Shown here: piece after piece, positions 3,133 through 13,748 of the stretch
Layout: the number at the start of each line of letters is the position of its first letter
Numbering within the stretch: the stretch's first letter is position 1
Source of the DNA: a virus
Taxonomy: Duplodnaviria; Heunggongvirae; Uroviricota; Caudoviricetes
DNA: 14,331 bases
Strand: one strand, 5' to 3'
Virus record (IMG/VR): IMGVR_UViG_2778261418_000001
Span: 1 to 14,331 of that record
Translations under genes and position numbers: made by a program
The notes under the pieces: model-generated
What the model was told of the DNA's origin: nothing
The model's input: the letters and a program-made list of their open reading frames with translations, nothing else
The model's database searches: none

Positions 3133-3291
3133 TTATGGCGATACCAGAGAGCTTTCTGCGTGTACATGCGTCTCTGTAACTTGCTCTCCTTCACTGTGGT
3201 TGCAAGTGACATGAATATCTCCTTCGTTACCGATTAATTCTTTCATCTGACGAATGAATTCTTCGTCTGACCAGTTATCTGTAAAACTCAT
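3133..3291 (-). CDS. small protein (52 aa) in the kil position
   Basis: ATG at 3291 overlaps the cIII stop (ATGA). Lambda and P22 have kil immediately downstream of cIII. No sequence confirmation. Confidence 0.35.
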   Translation of the reverse strand: MSFTDNWSDEEFIRQMKELIGNEGDIHVTCNHSEGEQVTETHVHAESSLVSP

Positions 3292-3458
3292 GGACGGCCT
3301 TGTTGTTTCAAAATATCCCAAAGCTTTTCGAGCAAGCTTTTCATTCTTGGTTGTTTAAAGTCTGCTCCGGTTAAAATGTTTTTTCGTGAATGCTGTACCG
3401 ATAAAATCGGGTTGAAAGGGCGAACCGATGCCGCCCCTGCAATAGCGAACTGCTGCAT
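3288..3458 (-). CDS. cIII: CIII-like protein (56 aa), inhibitor of FtsH-mediated CII degradation
   Basis: Not in the ORF track. ATG at 3458 with AGAAGGAG Shine-Dalgarno. Translation MQQFAIAGAASVRPFNPILSVQHSRKNILTGADFKQPRMKSLLEKLWDILKQQGRP resembles lambda CIII (MQYAIAGW... / ...WKRLIDILNQPG). Confidence 0.65.
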   Translation of the reverse strand: MQQFAIAGAASVRPFNPILSVQHSRKNILTGADFKQPRMKSLLEKLWDILKQQGRP

Positions 3459-3534
3459 AGGATGCTCCTTCTGTTTGATTGCATAACGAAAAACGCCTCG
3501 AGTGAAGCGTTATTGGTATGCGGTAACGCCGCGC

Positions 3535-3903
3535 TCAGGCGGCTTTGATAGTCATATCATCTGAATCAAATATTCCTGATGTATCGATATCGGTAATTCT
3601 TATTCCTTCGCTACCATCCATTGTAGGCCATCCTTCCTGACCATTTCCATCATTCCAGTCGAACTCACACACAACACCATATGCATTTAAGTCGCTTGAA
3701 ATTGCTATAAGCAGAGCATGTTGCGCCAGCATGATTAATACAGCATTTAATACAGAGCCGTGTTTATTGAGTCGGTATTCAGAGTCTGACCAGAAATTAT
3801 TAATCTGGTGAAGTTTTTCCTCTGTCATTACGTCATGGTCGATTTCAATTTCTATTGATGCTTTCCAGTCGTAATCAATGATGTATTTTTTGATGTTTGA
3901 CAT
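3535..3903 (-). CDS. hypothetical protein (122 aa), acidic
   Basis: ATG at 3903 with GAGGA RBS. Lies in the sieB/ral/ea10-equivalent variable slot. No family recognised. Confidence 0.55.
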   Translation of the reverse strand: MSNIKKYIIDYDWKASIEIEIDHDVMTEEKLHQINNFWSDSEYRLNKHGSVLNAVLIMLAQHALLIAISSDLNAYGVVCEFDWNDGNGQEGWPTMDGSEGIRITDIDTSGIFDSDDMTIKAA

Positions 3904-3921
3904 CTATTCATATCCTCACAG

Positions 3922-3948
3922 AAAAAAATCGCCCTCACATCGGAGGGC
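3922..3948 (-). terminator. intrinsic terminator-like hairpin just upstream of the 122-aa gene
   Basis: On the minus strand: GCCCTC-cgatgt-GAGGGC followed by GATTTTTTT, about 19 nt before the RBS. Confidence 0.5.
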
Positions 3949-4052
3949 AAAGAAGATTTCCAATAATCAGAACAAGTCGGCTCCTGTTTAGTTACGAGCG
4001 ACATTGCTCCGTGTATTCACTCGTTGGAATGAATACACAGTGCTTATTTGTA

Positions 4053-4523
4053 CTAATAAAATACCCAATTTTCTGTTTCTTGGTTGTGTCCAAAGTTATA
4101 TTCAATATCTGGTGTTGATGTATCAATATTTTTCATCCCATCAACAAGAGTTGATACAACAGCCAAATCTTGTTTTATTCTCATTAAATGGTATTTCTTC
4201 CGGCGCAATAAACTTTCAATAGCAAGTTTCTTCGTTGGGAATGCAAAAGATCTTTCTGCATTTTTTGCTACTTTCTTAATTGCATATCTATTTCTCCTTT
4301 GTTTCCATTCCTGTAACCACTGATTTGGTGCTGGTTTAAAATCAACAATCCAATGCGCAGGAACCAACCATGCATAATGCTCTGTCTGATGAAAAGCTAT
4401 ATATTGAAGTGCGAATATTTTTATCCCATCTTCTTCAACTGTCGCCTGGAATCTCCAGAAAACAGGCATTCCATCATGTTCAGTTTCTGATTCAGGAAAA
4501 GGTACGCTCCATGATTTTGTCAT
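4053..4523 (-). CDS. hypothetical protein (156 aa)
   Basis: ATG at 4523 with GAGGTG Shine-Dalgarno. The RBS overlaps the stop of the N-like remnant, as expected for the native gene downstream of N. No family recognised. Confidence 0.55.
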   Translation of the reverse strand: MTKSWSVPFPESETEHDGMPVFWRFQATVEEDGIKIFALQYIAFHQTEHYAWLVPAHWIVDFKPAPNQWLQEWKQRRNRYAIKKVAKNAERSFAFPTKKLAIESLLRRKKYHLMRIKQDLAVVSTLVDGMKNIDTSTPDIEYNFGHNQETENWVFY

Positions 4524-4531
4524 ATCTCACC

Positions 4532-4624
4532 TCAAATAAGTGGTTTGCTGCCTAATTTCATTTTCTGGCGACCAACACAAGTCACACCCATTTCACTGCG
4601 TGGCTTGCTGTAGTAAATACGGTT
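4532..4624 (-). pseudogene. N: 3' remnant of an N-type antiterminator gene (C-terminal ~30 codons only)
   Basis: Minus-strand frame translates to NRIYYSKPRSEMGVTCVGRQKMKLGSKPLI-stop, matching the conserved C-terminus of lambda N (YSKPGERGITCSGRQKIKGKSIPLI). The frame is closed by TAA at 4673-4675, has no start codon, and differs from the upstream 147-aa ORF frame. Confidence 0.6.
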
Positions 4625-4630
4625 ATTTAT

Positions 4631-4657
4631 GTAATAAAAAACCCGCCTTAGCGGGTT
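4631..4657 (-). terminator. intrinsic terminator after the 147-aa gene
   Basis: Minus strand: AACCCGC-taag-GCGGGTT followed by TTTTTATT, directly after the 147-aa stop codon. Confidence 0.6.
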
Positions 4658-4658
4658 A

Positions 4659-5102
4659 TTATTTCTTTGGATTTAGCTTTTCCATGTTCTCTGCGATCGT
4701 ACCTATTCTTGACCTTATTGTTGGAATATCAATTCCTCTCTGTATGTCTACATTTAAAGACATAAGCTCTCTGCTCCATCCTGCGATCGCATCGTGAAAT
4801 TGTCTTGCCCTGCTTGCTTGTCTACGTCTGCTGCTTTCAAGCTCTGTAAGCATTTGCTTTGCTTCGATCTGAGACTTGCCTTGCCCAACTCCCAATGCAT
4901 CGATTGCACATTGCCTCATCTCTGCTTTTATCAAAGGGTGAAGATTTTCAGCGCCAATAAAAATTACCTCGTCTATGCTTTTAAAAAGCAGAAGGCAATC
5001 AGTAACAACTTTGGTTCTTTTATCATCACACCTTACCTCTACCGAAGGTACGCCGCCATATTGCTTAACTCTCATTGCCGTGTAAACTGTAGCACTCTTC
5101 AA
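4659..5102 (-). CDS. hypothetical protein (147 aa) occupying the N position; TTG start
   Basis: AAGGAGG Shine-Dalgarno 5 nt before TTG at 5102. First gene after pL. Internal Arg-rich stretch SSRRRQASRARQ. No resemblance to lambda, 21 or P22 N. Confidence 0.55.
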   Translation of the reverse strand: MKSATVYTAMRVKQYGGVPSVEVRCDDKRTKVVTDCLLLFKSIDEVIFIGAENLHPLIKAEMRQCAIDALGVGQGKSQIEAKQMLTELESSRRRQASRARQFHDAIAGWSRELMSLNVDIQRGIDIPTIRSRIGTIAENMEKLNPKK

Positions 5103-5130
5103 ATCAGCCTCCTTTTTCTTTTTCTATATC

Positions 5131-5170
5131 AAAAAGCTGCTTTGCTTTTTGTGACTAAAAGCAAAAAAGC
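5131..5170 (-). promoter_or_regulatory. large hairpin plus U-run in the pL leader, preceded by a boxA-like motif
   Basis: Minus-strand RNA: GCUUUUUUGCUUUU-agucac-AAAAGCAAAGCAGC (14-bp stem, one mismatch) then UUUUU, ending ~17 nt before the RBS. TGCTCATTA lies ~10 nt 5' of the hairpin (boxA consensus CGCTCTTTA). Confidence 0.45.
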
Positions 5171-5259
5171 CTTCTCGCTAATGAGCAGCATTGCCGTTCA
5201 TCCTGAACCCGCCGCGCTCCCGACGCATGGTTTAATGTCGCGCCGTTCGACATGGCTTA

Positions 5260-5301
5260 ACTATACCCAAAGCTATTATTGCTGTAAATAGCTATAGTTA
5301 T
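5260..5301 (-). promoter_or_regulatory. OL/pL: leftward early promoter with overlapping repressor operators
   Basis: Minus strand -35 TTTACA (plus 5283-5288), 17-bp spacer, -10 TATAGT (plus 5260-5265). Operator-like sites ATACC-caaa-GCTAT (5263-5276) and ATAGC-tata-GTTAT (5288-5301), same architecture as OR. Confidence 0.6.
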
Positions 5302-5427: not shown

Positions 5428-6159
5428 TTAGTAGTCAACTACAGACCACCAGAAGATTCTTCCGATGATCTCGATATCGCTTAGATTCTTTTCTTCTTGT
5501 GGGTATTCCAGTGAGTTAAAGCTTCTAATGCTTACCTTGTCAGGCCCTGATCGAAAGAGAATCTTAATGCGTTTCCAACCGTTCTCGTTAATGGCGTAAA
5601 TCTTTCCGTCAACTATTTTCTTATCGTTGGTGTTAACAGCAACTGTTGTTCCATCAGGAATGTTTGGCTCCATGCTGTTGCCACGAGCCGGAAAACAAAC
5701 AACCCCGCTTCCATCACTGTTCGCGCCAACTCTGCGAAGGGTTGATTTGGAGAAGCGCAACATAAAGCCGTTGTGATCTTCATCAATCACCCGACCATCC
5801 CCGCATGCAAACTCAATATCTTTAAGGTAAGGAACTTCAACTTCATCACCTCTTAAAGGCGTTCCTCCATCCCATGGGTCCAAATATCCCCACGTGCTTT
5901 CATGAGGAATAGAAGATTTTGGATTATAAGGTTCAACTCCCTCATCACGCATTGGCCCAGTCCCATCGGAAAGCCATTCCGTACGAACTCCAAGCACTTT
6001 TGATATTTCAAAAAGTTTGCGCGTATTGCGTGTTTTTCCAGACGTAAGTTTCCAGACGCTTGGCTGAGACATGCCAACAGCATTGCCAAGAGAAGCCTGA
6101 GTAAACCCAGCCTGATCCATCGCGTATGTAAGCCTTTGAGAAAAAGTATCTAGTTTCAT
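5428..6159 (-). CDS. cI: CI-type prophage repressor (HTH N-domain plus LexA-like S24 autopeptidase C-domain)
   Basis: N-terminal XRE-type HTH (QASLGNAVGMSQPSVWKL). C-terminal S24 fold with the Ser motif GNSMEP and Lys in KRIK. Divergent from cro, flanked by operators; mRNA appears leaderless from pRM. Confidence 0.85.
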   Translation of the reverse strand: MKLDTFSQRLTYAMDQAGFTQASLGNAVGMSQPSVWKLTSGKTRNTRKLFEISKVLGVRTEWLSDGTGPMRDEGVEPYNPKSSIPHESTWGYLDPWDGGTPLRGDEVEVPYLKDIEFACGDGRVIDEDHNGFMLRFSKSTLRRVGANSDGSGVVCFPARGNSMEPNIPDGTTVAVNTNDKKIVDGKIYAINENGWKRIKILFRSGPDKVSIRSFNSLEYPQEEKNLSDIEIIGRIFWWSVVDY

Positions 6160-6165
6160 TCGTAC

Positions 6166-6236
6166 AACCTATAGCTACAGCTATTATTAGTCAAATACCT
6201 AAAGCTATTTACTTTCTGAATAGCTTTGGCTATTAT
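6166..6236. promoter_or_regulatory. OR region: three operators overlapping divergent pRM and pR
   Basis: Sites ATAGC-taca-GCTAT (6171-6184), ATACC-taaa-GCTAT (6195-6208), AATAGC-tttg-GCTATT (6218-6233). pR: -35 TTTACT (6208-6213), 17 bp, -10 TATTAT (6231-6236). pRM on minus: -35 TTGACT (6189-6194), 17 bp, -10 TAGGTT (6166-6171), with the cI ATG ~7 nt downstream. Confidence 0.65.
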
Positions 6237-6267
6237 TCTGATTGTGAATTCAGCAGGAGTTATTTTT

Positions 6268-6498
6268 ATGGTCAACGAGGCTATTAAAGCGGCTATTGAC
6301 TCAGTAGGAAGTCAGCAAAAGTTAGCTGATGCCTGCGGTGTTAAGCAGCCGTCTGTATGGGCTTGGTTGCATGGGAAGAAAAGGGTATCCGCTGAAAATG
6401 CCAAGCGCATTGAAATGGCTACCAATGGAAGCGTCCCTGCATACCTGATTCGCCCTGATTTATCCGCTTTGTTCCCCAATCCGAACAAAGCAGCTTAA
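6268..6498 (+). CDS. cro: Cro-like repressor (76 aa from ATG 6268)
   Basis: First gene rightward from pR. AGGAG RBS before ATG 6268. HTH QQKLADACGVKQPSVWAWLHGKK. The TTG at 6226 in the track ORF lies inside the operator. Confidence 0.75.
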   Translation: MVNEAIKAAIDSVGSQQKLADACGVKQPSVWAWLHGKKRVSAENAKRIEMATNGSVPAYLIRPDLSALFPNPNKAA

Positions 6499-13592: not shown

Positions 13593-13667
13593 GGGTCAGT
13601 CGTATAAAGGTCATTACGGAAGGCTGTTAACCTTCTTATCGTGGTTCGAGTCCACGCTGTCCCGCCA
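13593..13667 (+). tRNA. tRNA, anticodon GUU (Asn) by manual fold; imperfect stems
   Basis: 75 nt cloverleaf. Anticodon arm GAAGG-CTGTTAA-CCTTC, T-arm CGTGG-TTCGAGT-CCACG, 3' GCCA. One mismatch each in the acceptor and D stems, so it may be divergent or a pseudo-tRNA. Confidence 0.55.
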
Positions 13668-13672
13668 AATAT

Positions 13673-13748
13673 GCTGGTTTAGCTCCAATGGTAGAGCGGT
13701 CGCCTTGTAAGCGAATGGGTAGCGGTTCAAGTCCGTTAACCAGCACCA
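13673..13748 (+). tRNA. tRNA, anticodon UGU (Thr) by manual fold
   Basis: 76 nt. Perfect 7-bp acceptor stem (GCTGGTT/AACCAGC), D-arm GCTC-CAATGGTA-GAGC, anticodon loop CTTGTAA, T-arm AGCGG-TTCAAGT-CCGTT, ACCA 3' end. Confidence 0.7.

What the first reader, a model, noticed from the sequence alone, without database searches (positions are those of the whole stretch)
3535..4523. Two unknown genes (156 aa and 122 aa) in the post-N variable slot, each bracketed by hairpins
This slot corresponds to lambda ea10/ral/sieB and P22 sieB/17, a classic accessory position for exclusion, anti-restriction or defense genes. Neither protein matches a family I recognise. The 122-aa protein is very acidic, as DNA mimics and anti-restriction proteins often are. 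The 122-aa gene is preceded by a terminator-like hairpin (3922-3948), and a 9-bp perfect inverted repeat (4011-4038) follows the 156-aa gene.
Basis: inference. Interest (0 to 1): 0.6.

Follow-up and report, generated by a model that had tools for sequence, protein, structure and literature searches.

The report
Lambda ea10, PreS sRNA, HK97 gp45
The region is an already-sequenced stretch of a lambda-like phage's early operon: one "unknown" gene is lambda's own ea10, the other is the uncharacterised HK97 gp45 / 933W L0079 gene, and the hairpins between them belong to the known small RNA PreS and its terminator tL2a.

Summary
Both ORFs and both hairpins are at the stated coordinates, on the minus strand, in the early-left (pL) operon of a lambdoid phage.

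- **122-aa ORF (3535-3903).** This is lambda Ea10: 121/122 residues identical, Pfam DUF2528.
- **156-aa ORF (4053-4523).** This is the orthologue of HK97 gp45 / 933W L0079. It is a real gene under purifying selection and occurs in 598 of 5426 complete E. coli genomes. It has no Pfam, NCBIfam or PADLOC match and no fold match, so its function is unknown.
- **Hairpins.** Bases 3922-4009 are 85/88 identical to lambda PreS (LPR1). PreS is an Hfq-dependent sRNA that raises dnaN translation, and its terminator is tL2a. The 18-nt seed is 18/18 identical. The 4011-4038 hairpin ends 1 nt before the PreS 5' end. The block is annotated in phage Sf6 as "tL2A" and "boundary sequence bsq4". It is more widespread than either flanking gene (2234 of 5426 genomes).
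- **"Post-N" does not hold here.** The phage carries an HK022-type putL RNA and only a 39-nt N remnant.

No evidence supports a defence or exclusion role. Both genes lie inside the lytic pL transcript with no promoter-like site of their own. Verdict: ordinary and already known as sequence. Only the function of gp45 (and of Ea10) remains open.

The parts
4053..4523 (-). 156-aa gene, orthologue of HK97 gp45 / 933W L0079 (phrog_1636). Uncharacterised early accessory protein: soluble, pI 8.8, with a basic central helix.
   Evidence: - 98.7-99.4% amino-acid identity to HK97 Gp45 and 933W L0079; phrog_1636 at E = 7e-112.
- No Pfam, NCBIfam or PADLOC match.
- Purifying selection: dN/dS 0.09-0.14, with synonymous sites saturated against distant homologues.
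- No transmembrane segment: maximum Kyte-Doolittle hydropathy (19-residue window) is 0.56.
4011..4038 (-). It sits 10 nt after the gp45 stop codon and ends 1 nt before the PreS 5' end. It is the 5' edge of the conserved 'boundary sequence'.
   Evidence: - RNA fold; longest inverted repeat in the region.
- Homology to lambda begins at 4043.
- The hairpin is retained in the authors' full lpr1 deletion (primer P969).
- It has no U-tract, so it is not an intrinsic terminator.
3922..4009 (-). Copy of the lambda sRNA PreS (LPR1), 88 nt. Seed at 3957-3974; terminator tL2a stem at 3929-3950; U-tract at 3922-3928.
   Evidence: - 85/88 identical to lambda lpr1 as defined by the authors' cloning primers. 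The differences are two bases in the terminator loop and the last base.
- Seed 18/18 identical.
- Sf6 GenBank annotation of the same block: 'terminator, homology to phage lambda tL2A' and 'bsq4 boundary sequence'.
- Terminator scan hit.
- No Rfam family matches it.
3535..3903 (-). ea10 gene (lambda Ea10, Pfam DUF2528), an acidic 13.8-kDa early protein of unknown function.
   Evidence: - 121/122 identical to lambda Ea10; PF10800 at 159 bits against a cut-off of 22; phrog_646.
- Window 3435-4043 is 95.6% identical to lambda 33443-34045.
- AF2 mean pLDDT 93.
3492..3511 (-). Terminator-like hairpin between ea10 and the cIII-like gene (3288-3458).
   Evidence: - Terminator scan.
- The sequence is shared with lambda and HK97.
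- The cIII assignment rests on phrog_550 at E = 1e-22.
4586..4624 (-). Remnant of an N antiterminator gene: an internal 3' piece of phage-21-type N.
   Evidence: 100% identical over 39 nt to a stretch inside the phage 21 / DE3 N coding sequence.
4634..4657 (-). Intrinsic terminator after the 147-aa pL-proximal ORF. It must be read through for the genes of the finding to be expressed.
   Evidence: Terminator scan: 7-bp G+C-rich stem followed by TTTTTATT. It is also scored on the plus strand.
5122..5288 (-). pL promoter and HK022-type putL antiterminator RNA, which drive and antiterminate the operon that contains the finding.
   Evidence: - 96.4% identical over 138 nt to HK022, HK75 and O276 segments annotated 'putL: antiterminator RNA' and 'promoter'.
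- Promoter-like site TTTACA-17-TATAGT at 5288-5260.

Best explanation
The finding is a normal mosaic piece of a lambdoid early-left operon, read right to left on the minus strand.

**Gene order.** pL and putL (5122-5288); a 147-aa ORF; a terminator (4634-4657); an N remnant; the HK97-gp45-type gene (4053-4523); a 12-bp hairpin (4011-4038); the PreS sRNA with terminator tL2a (3922-4009); ea10 (3535-3903); a hairpin; then cIII.

**How it most likely works.**
1. After induction or infection, RNA polymerase starts at pL. The HK022-type putL RNA makes it termination-resistant. This step is inferred from 96% identity to putL.
2. Polymerase reads through the first terminator and transcribes gp45.
3. 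Some transcripts end at tL2a, and the 5' end of the sRNA forms just 3' of the upstream hairpin. This yields PreS.
4. In lambda, PreS binds Hfq, pairs through an 18-nt seed with host dnaN mRNA, raises beta-clamp synthesis and aids phage DNA replication. This was shown experimentally for lambda. It is inferred here from 85/88 identity, including the whole seed.
5. Read-through transcripts continue into ea10, whose ribosome-binding site starts directly after the U-tract, and then into cIII.

**The hairpin/PreS block as a recombination linker.** The block is nearly invariant and serves as the homologous linker ('boundary sequence') at which different accessory genes are swapped in on either side.

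**The two proteins.** Both are non-essential delayed-early proteins made in lytic growth, not from the repressed prophage. Ea10 is the known abundant acidic lambda protein of unknown function. For gp45 I commit to this as most likely (about 40%): a cytoplasmic host-directed early effector, for host takeover or counter-defence, that binds a nucleic acid or a conserved host protein through its basic central helix. It is unlikely to be a prophage exclusion or defence protein.
For: **Identity of the parts**
- Ea10 is 121/122 identical to lambda Ea10, with DUF2528 at E = 4e-47.
- gp45 is 98.7-99.4% identical to HK97 Gp45 and 933W L0079.
- The PreS sequence was taken from the authors' primers. The window copy is 85/88 identical, with the seed 18/18.
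- Across lambda, 933W, HK97 and the window, only the terminator loop varies, in three variants. The stems are invariant.
- Sf6 annotates the block as tL2A and bsq4.

**PreS function in lambda**
- bioRxiv 10.1101/2024.10.31.621285.

**Modularity**
- HK97 has gp45, the hairpin, PreS, then cIII, with ea10 precisely absent.
- In 80 IMG/VR loci carrying a gp45 gene at least 99% identical, gp45 follows N genes of at least four to five different types.
- The hairpin/PreS block follows gp45 in 75 of the 75 loci that have enough flank, 10 nt after the stop codon in 64. ea10 follows in only 28.
- Frequency in complete E. coli genomes: block 2234, ea10 1479, gp45 598, of 5426.

**Expression logic**
- All the genes are on the pL strand. 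No promoter-like site lies upstream of gp45.
- putL identity.
- Distant gp45 homologues also sit in early-left operons: after an N-like gene and before gam and recT; before recT, yqaJ and ssb; or before exc and int.
- More remote relatives sit in early gene arrays of unrelated Vibrio and Pantoea phages.

**gp45 as a real protein**
- It is under purifying selection and is soluble and basic.

**Ea10**
- Non-essential (PMC10695390) and abundantly produced (PMC3961180).
Against: - No expression data exist for this particular phage.
- PreS function was shown only in lambda, which uses N rather than put antitermination. The share of transcripts that stop at tL2a under put-modified polymerase is unknown.
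- The origin of the PreS 5' end is not stated in the source. The roles I give the upstream hairpin (a processing boundary, or a 3' stabiliser of gp45 mRNA) are my inference.
- The functional class proposed for gp45 rests only on context and composition. The structure model is mediocre (pLDDT 65), with no fold or family match.
- One close relative (Wanchaivirus PDP110P2) carries a frameshifted gp45, so the gene is dispensable.
Confidence: 0.85

Rival explanations
1. One reading: the two genes are exclusion, defence or anti-restriction cassettes in an accessory slot. Specifically, Ea10 would be an acidic DNA mimic that blocks restriction enzymes, and gp45 would be an exclusion or anti-restriction factor taking the place of ral and sieB.
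For: - The slot is the same as lambda ral/sieB.
- gp45 and lambda-type ral never co-occur in 80 loci (0/80), as expected of alternative occupants of one slot.
- Ea10 has pI 4.28 and net charge -14.
Against: - No PADLOC match for either protein.
- The 156-aa protein gave no Pfam or NCBIfam match at all, so no anti-restriction family among them.
- Both genes are inside the repressed pL operon with no promoter-like site of their own. A prophage-expressed defence role is therefore unlikely.
- ea10 is non-essential by CRISPRi and lies within the sieB-ea10 deletion used in laboratory lambda prophage strains.
- No defence or anti-defence report on Ea10 turned up in the searched library.
- Neither protein was in the 200-gene accessory-gene screen of Silas et al..
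Confidence: 0.2
2. Ea10 is a single-stranded-DNA-binding protein, as annotated in the 933W, phage 21 and several prophage records.
For: Database labels: 'ssb' or 'putative single-stranded DNA binding protein' in 933W and Min27, and 'ssDNA binding protein' in phage 21.
Against: - The Pfam scan returns DUF2528 and no SSB or OB-fold family.
- The confident AF2 model (pLDDT 93) is a beta-hairpin, four helices and one strand, not a five-stranded OB barrel.
- A strongly acidic protein (pI 4.28) is a poor DNA binder.
Confidence: 0.03
3. Ea10 is a soluble SPFH-like module that acts on the host HflK/HflC-FtsH complex, cooperating with the neighbouring cIII (an FtsH inhibitor) to tune CII stability.
For: - ea10 lies directly upstream of cIII in lambda, 21, 933W and this window.
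Against: - EF-Ts and T-fold proteins score about the same, so the match may reflect only a generic two-layer alpha/beta topology.
- HK97 and HK022 keep cIII without ea10.
Confidence: 0.07
4. The hairpins are only transcription terminators or mRNA-stabilising stem-loops at module borders. On this view the PreS-like sequence makes no functional sRNA in this put-dependent phage.
For: - tL2a was first described as a terminator.
- put-modified polymerase should read through it.
- No expression data exist for this phage.
Against: - The 18-nt seed lies outside any stem yet is 18/18 conserved. The whole 88 nt is near-invariant across phages whose flanking genes differ, while the terminator loop varies. 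That pattern fits selection on the RNA itself.
- Lambda also antiterminates at tL2a and still makes PreS.
Confidence: 0.1

Closest known systems
Bacteriophage lambda Ea10 (lambdap45; Pfam DUF2528)
   Same: - 121/122 residues identical.
- Same length, the same upstream tL2a/PreS block and the same downstream hairpin.
- Followed, as in lambda, by a cIII-family gene (phrog_550), though the window's cIII is diverged from lambda's.
   Different: One substitution (P94T). The gene is driven here by a put-type rather than an N-type antitermination system.
Lambda sRNA PreS / LPR1 with terminator tL2a (bioRxiv 10.1101/2024.10.31.621285); the 'bsq4 boundary sequence' of the Sf6 annotation
   Same: - 85/88 nt identical, with the seed 18/18.
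- Same terminator stem and U-tract.
- Same 12-bp hairpin immediately 5' of the sRNA.
- Same position just upstream of ea10.
   Different: - Two bases in the terminator loop and the last base differ.
- The upstream neighbour is gp45 instead of ral.
- Expression and Hfq binding have not been shown for this phage.
HK97 Gp45 / 933W L0079 (phrog_1636), a hypothetical protein
   Same: - 98.7-99.4% identical and 156 aa long.
- Same position immediately upstream of the hairpin/PreS block.
   Different: In HK97, 933W and 80 IMG/VR loci the upstream gene is an N antiterminator. Here N has been replaced by putL plus a 147-aa ORF, leaving a 39-nt N remnant.
Lambda Ral, orf28 and SieB, the occupants of the same slot in lambda
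   Same: They occupy the same place in the genome, between the first pL gene and the hairpin/PreS block. They are dispensable accessory genes.
   Different: - The 156-aa protein has no match in Pfam, NCBIfam or PADLOC, so no link to Ral or SieB was found. A direct pairwise comparison with lambda Ral or SieB was not run.
- It has no transmembrane segment.
- No restriction-alleviation or exclusion activity is known for gp45.

Membership tests
Lambda Ea10 / DUF2528 | Sequence match to Pfam PF10800 above the gathering score, and near-identity to lambda Ea10 | tested here: met
   159.3 bits against a cut-off of 22; 121/122 identical.
Lambda Ea10 / DUF2528 | Synteny: between tL2a and cIII in the pL operon, on the pL strand | tested here: met
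   Window 3435-4043 is collinear with lambda 33443-34045 at 95.6% identity. A cIII-family gene lies at 3288-3458.
PreS (LPR1) sRNA | Sequence identity to lambda lpr1 of at least 92% (the authors' conservation criterion), including the 18-nt seed | tested here: met
   85/88 (96.6%) identical; seed 18/18.
PreS (LPR1) sRNA | 3' G+C-rich stem followed by a poly-U tail (tL2a), typical of Hfq-dependent sRNAs | tested here: met
   8-bp stem plus UUUUUUU at 3950-3922.
PreS (LPR1) sRNA | Accumulates as an ~88/68-nt Hfq-bound RNA in the lytic cycle and activates dnaN translation | not testable with these tools
   Needs northern blot, RIL-seq or reporter assays. Shown only for lambda.
HK97 gp45 / 933W L0079 family (phrog_1636) | Full-length sequence match | tested here: met
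   phrog_1636 at E = 7e-112 over residues 1-156; 98.7-99.4% identity to HK97 and 933W.
Known anti-phage defence systems (PADLOC-DB) | Significant match of either protein to a defence-system protein model | tested here: not met
   Ea10: no hit. 156-aa protein: only Cas1_II at E = 0.018 and 12 bits, which is noise.
SSB / OB-fold ssDNA-binding proteins (database label of Ea10) | SSB or OB-fold domain by sequence or by predicted structure | tested here: not met
   [not shown]
DNA-mimic anti-restriction proteins (Ocr or ArdA type) | Strongly acidic protein | tested here: met
   Ea10 has pI 4.28 and net charge -14. This feature is not specific to DNA mimics.
DNA-mimic anti-restriction proteins (Ocr or ArdA type) | Sequence or fold similarity to a known mimic, or a DNA-like array of surface carboxylates; inhibition of a restriction enzyme | tested here: inconclusive
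   [not shown]
Lambda N / nut antitermination ('post-N' context) | An intact N gene and nutL between pL and the slot | tested here: not met
   The 147-aa pL-proximal ORF has no Pfam match, so none to an N-type family. Bases 5122-5259 match HK022 putL. Only a 39-nt N fragment remains.
Moron-type accessory cassette (own promoter plus terminator, expressed from the prophage) | A promoter directly upstream of the gene, independent of pL | tested here: not met
   No sigma-70-like site on the minus strand between 4524 and 4660, or between 3904 and 4052. A consensus scan only, so weak promoters are not excluded.

The most novel reading that the evidence does not exclude
The HK97 gp45 / 933W L0079 family is a new class of early phage effector with a fold not represented in the PDB.

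- It occurs in about 11% of complete E. coli genomes and in many Stx-converting phage records.
- It is kept at 95-100% nucleotide identity across those E. coli genomes, and copies at least 99% identical in protein sit behind at least four to five different N alleles.
- It has remote ~140-aa relatives in unrelated Vibrio and Pantoea phages.

On this reading it is a counter-defence or host-takeover protein that fills the same slot as the anti-restriction gene ral.
Probability: 0.25. Interest if true: 0.55.

Novelty: already known. Interest (0 to 1): 0.2.

Why it matters
As a discovery it matters little. Every element has been in GenBank since lambda (1982), 933W (1999) and HK97 (2000), and the RNA element was characterised in 2024.

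Three practical points remain:
1. RefSeq lists no feature under this block in the hits shown, although it occurs in 41% of complete E. coli genomes.
2. The 'ssb' label on Ea10 in several phage records is not supported by sequence or by predicted structure.
3. gp45 is a widespread, strongly conserved phage gene, frequent in Stx-converting phages, with no function, no family and no fold assignment. It was absent from the one large accessory-gene screen I could check. It is a reasonable candidate for such screens.

Tried and rejected
**gp45, remote homology**
- Pfam, NCBIfam, PADLOC and PDB sequence searches gave nothing significant.
- A profile search of 1.84 billion representative proteins found 86 hits. 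They define a wider ~140-aa phage superfamily (phrog_13631, phrog_25384) with the shared motif K+hxK..RFAxxTKxxAxxxLxxRKxxQhxHLKRxL. None of 40 members has a Pfam family. No informative domain fusions were found. A profile search against PDB sequences gave only coiled-coil noise, namely the ATPase inhibitor IF1.
- The AP2/integrase-arm-like appearance of the 'RFAFxTKxxA' motif is my recollection only and could not be tested.

**gp45, structure**
- The afdb50 library was unavailable.

**Literature**
- Lead rejected: orf184 of Silas et al. triggers gop-beta-cII and lies in the ral accessory region, so I asked whether it is gp45. Its AlphaFold file begins MEALVVERSEDGYW, so it is not. Neither gp45 nor Ea10 sequence motifs occur in their list of 200 accessory genes.

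**Other comparisons**
- Sf6 gene 34, which sits in the same slot, is unrelated to gp45 (hhalign probability 0.1) and is hydrophobic.
- Rfam has no family for PreS or for the hairpins.

**Ea10**
- No solved relative by sequence.
Full report
**1. What is there**

The window is a lambdoid phage early region. A LexA-like repressor gene (5428-6159, minus) and a cro-like gene (6226-6498, plus) diverge from each other. The finding lies in the leftward (pL) operon, on the minus strand.

- The ORFs of 122 aa (3535-3903) and 156 aa (4053-4523) are at the stated coordinates.
- A terminator-like hairpin has its stem at 3929-3950 and a U-tract at 3922-3928.
- The inverted repeat at 4011-4038 is the longest in 3400-4700. 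As RNA it forms a 12-bp stem with a 4-nt loop.
- The 138-nt intergenic RNA folds with z = -5.4 against dinucleotide shuffles.
- The 122-aa protein is acidic: pI 4.28, 22 D+E against 8 K+R.

**2. The 122-aa gene is lambda ea10**

- It is 121/122 identical to lambda Ea10.
- It matches Pfam DUF2528 at E = 4e-47 (159 bits against a cut-off of 22) and phrog_646.
- Window 3435-4043 is 95.6% identical to lambda 33443-34045. This stretch holds the start of cIII, ea10 and the whole ea10-ral intergenic block.

What is known about Ea10 is thin. It is non-essential by CRISPRi (PMC10695390). It is abundantly made from pL (PMC3961180). It showed one interaction in the lambda two-hybrid map (PMC3224144). I found no defence or anti-defence report on it.

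**3. The hairpins belong to a known sRNA**

A 2024 preprint (bioRxiv 10.1101/2024.10.31.621285) describes LPR1/PreS, an Hfq-dependent sRNA encoded between ea10 and ral of lambda.

- Its 3' end is the tL2a terminator. It appears as ~88-nt and ~68-nt species in the lytic cycle.
- It pairs through a seed with host dnaN mRNA, raises DnaN synthesis and promotes phage DNA replication. Seed or full deletions lower phage yield two- to four-fold in an Hfq-dependent way.
- The authors' primers define lpr1 as GAGCAATGTCGCTCG...GAGGGCGATTTTTTA, with the deleted seed TGTTCTGATTATTGGAAA.

In the window this sequence lies at 4009 to 3922 on the minus strand. It is 85/88 identical to lambda, and the seed (3974-3957) is 18/18 identical. 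The only differences are two bases in the terminator loop and the last base.

Across lambda, 933W, HK97 and the window, the terminator loop shows three variants while the stems and the seed are invariant.

The "9-bp inverted repeat 4011-4038" is a hairpin that ends 1 nt before the PreS 5' end. That hairpin is deliberately kept in the authors' full lpr1 deletion (primer P969). It has no U-tract, so it is not an intrinsic terminator. I infer, but cannot show, that it marks a processing boundary and/or stabilises the 3' end of the upstream mRNA.

The same block is annotated in the Sf6 GenBank record as "terminator; homology to phage lambda; tL2A" and "bsq4; boundary sequence". Rfam has no family for it.

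**4. The block is a recombination linker, and both of its flanks are variable**

| Phage | Upstream of the block | Downstream of the block |
|---|---|---|
| lambda | sieB, orf28, ral | ea10 |
| phage 21 | ral | ea10 |
| 933W and this window | gp45 | ea10 |
| HK97 | gp45 | cIII (ea10 precisely absent) |
| Sf6 | gene 34 plus ral | gene 33 |
| HK022 | IS903 | cIII |

The 131-nt block is 95-99% identical in 325 phage records. It occurs in 2234 of 5426 complete E. coli genomes, against 1479 for ea10 and 598 for gp45. The RefSeq hits listed show no annotated feature under it.

In 80 IMG/VR loci that carry a gp45 gene at least 99% identical:
- the upstream gene is an N antiterminator of 933W type (29 loci), phage 21 type (29), lambda type (11) or another arginine-rich N-like ORF;
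- the hairpin/PreS block follows in 75 of the 75 loci that have enough flank, 10 nt after the stop codon in 64;
- seven loci have one or two extra small ORFs in between;
- ea10 follows in 28;
- lambda-type ral occurs in none.

**5. The "post-N" label fails for this window**

Bases 5122-5259 are 96.4% identical to the HK022, HK75 and O276 segments annotated as pL promoter and putL antiterminator RNA. The pL-proximal gene is an unknown 147-aa ORF (4659-5102, phrog_13686, no Pfam hit), followed by a strong terminator (4634-4657).

Between that terminator and gp45, bases 4586-4624 are 100% identical to an internal 3' piece of the phage 21 N gene. The ancestor therefore had N followed by gp45, and the N module was replaced by a put-type module.

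Expression of gp45, PreS and ea10 here should thus depend on put-mediated read-through. This is inferred.

**6. The 156-aa gene**

It is the orthologue of HK97 Gp45 and 933W L0079: 98.7-99.4% amino-acid identity and phrog_1636 at E = 7e-112. Every record lists it as hypothetical.

It is a real gene.
- Full-length homologues exist down to 55% identity in Pectobacterium, Brenneria, Cronobacter, Rosenbergiella and metagenomes, with 40 invariant columns.
- Synonymous sites are saturated while pN is 0.17-0.25, and dN/dS is 0.09-0.14.

It has no transmembrane segment (maximum hydropathy 0.56). Its pI is 8.8, with a basic centre at residues 79-130 and acidic ends.

An exhaustive profile search found 86 representative proteins. 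They define a wider ~140-aa phage superfamily (phrog_13631, phrog_25384) with a conserved motif around 'RFAxxTKxxAxxxLxxRKxxQ'. No member has a known domain.

Context is consistent.
- Distant homologues lie on the early-left strand of lambdoid prophages: after an N-like gene and before gam and recT; before recT, yqaJ and ssb; or before exc and int.
- Remote relatives lie in early arrays of small genes in a Vibrio phage and in Pantoea phage LIET2.
- No promoter-like site precedes the gene.
- The closest whole-region relative, Wanchaivirus PDP110P2, has a 1-bp deletion that frameshifts gp45, so the gene is dispensable.

**7. Mechanism and rivals**

The best-supported account covers the region as a whole: a put-antiterminated pL transcript carrying gp45, PreS/tL2a and ea10, as set out in the best explanation. 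I put confidence at about 0.85 for the identities and the RNA module.

For the proteins only weak inference is possible. gp45 most likely acts in lytic growth as a cytoplasmic host-directed effector (about 40%). Within that, the counter-defence or takeover reading with a new fold gets about 25%. A prophage-expressed exclusion role is unlikely, at no more than 5%, because the gene is embedded in the repressed operon.

For Ea10, the SSB label gets about 3%. The SPFH/HflKC idea (about 7%) and the DNA-mimic idea stay untested leads.

**8. Verdict**

One 'unknown' gene is lambda ea10. The other is a long-catalogued hypothetical gene. The hairpins are tL2a/PreS and the classical boundary sequence.

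Novelty: already known. Interest: 0.2. That score is carried only by the unassigned and widespread gp45 family, and by the fact that the first reading missed the non-coding sRNA, which is the functionally best-understood element of the region.

Noticed in passing
window 5122-5288 (minus): The operon is driven by an HK022-type pL/putL antiterminator RNA (96.4% identical over 138 nt), not by N/nutL. This phage therefore appears to use RNA-mediated (put) antitermination.
   Followed up: partly
window 4659-5102 (minus), terminator 4634-4657: The first pL gene, in the position of HK022 nun, is an unknown 147-aa basic protein (TTG start, strong Shine-Dalgarno sequence, phrog_13686, no Pfam or NCBIfam family). 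A terminator scored on both strands follows it.
   Followed up: partly
window 4586-4624: A 39-nt stretch is 100% identical to an internal 3' piece of the phage 21 N gene. It is a remnant showing that an N module was replaced by the put module next to gp45.
   Followed up: yes
L003 (Wanchaivirus PDP110P2) 3655-5300: The closest relative of the whole region has a 1-bp deletion (at window position 4390) that frameshifts gp45. It also has about 1 kb of extra DNA with three small ORFs (68, 113 and 73 aa) between gp45 and the 147-aa gene.
   Followed up: partly
L007 (HK97) 3972-4165; L012 (HK022) 2135-2365: HK97 joins the PreS terminator directly to the post-ea10 hairpin, so ea10 is precisely absent. 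HK022 has IS903 inserted right next to the PreS block and lacks part of the upstream hairpin.
   Followed up: partly
[not shown]
   Followed up: no
window 3885-3896 and 3918-3929: The PreS U-tract region is complementary (10 of 12 bases) to codons 3-6 of ea10. This would place the ea10 ribosome-binding site and start codon in a hairpin loop on read-through transcripts. It may be chance.
   Followed up: no
IMG/VR loci L022, L029, L045, L050 (about 370-550 bp after gp45): In 7 of 75 loci, one or two further small ORFs are inserted between gp45 and the hairpin/PreS block. Examples are a 94-98-aa protein ending ...AISKALGGE and a 52-70-aa protein. These are more cargo in the same slot.
   Followed up: no
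E. coli RefSeq genomes (hits H136-H140): The hairpin/PreS block occurs in 2234 of 5426 complete E. coli genomes, up to six copies per genome. The listed hits show no annotated feature under it.
   Followed up: partly
window 13593-13664 and 13673-13745 (plus): Two tRNA genes lie in the late-gene regulatory region of the phage (Rfam tRNA, 55 and 61 bits).
   Followed up: no
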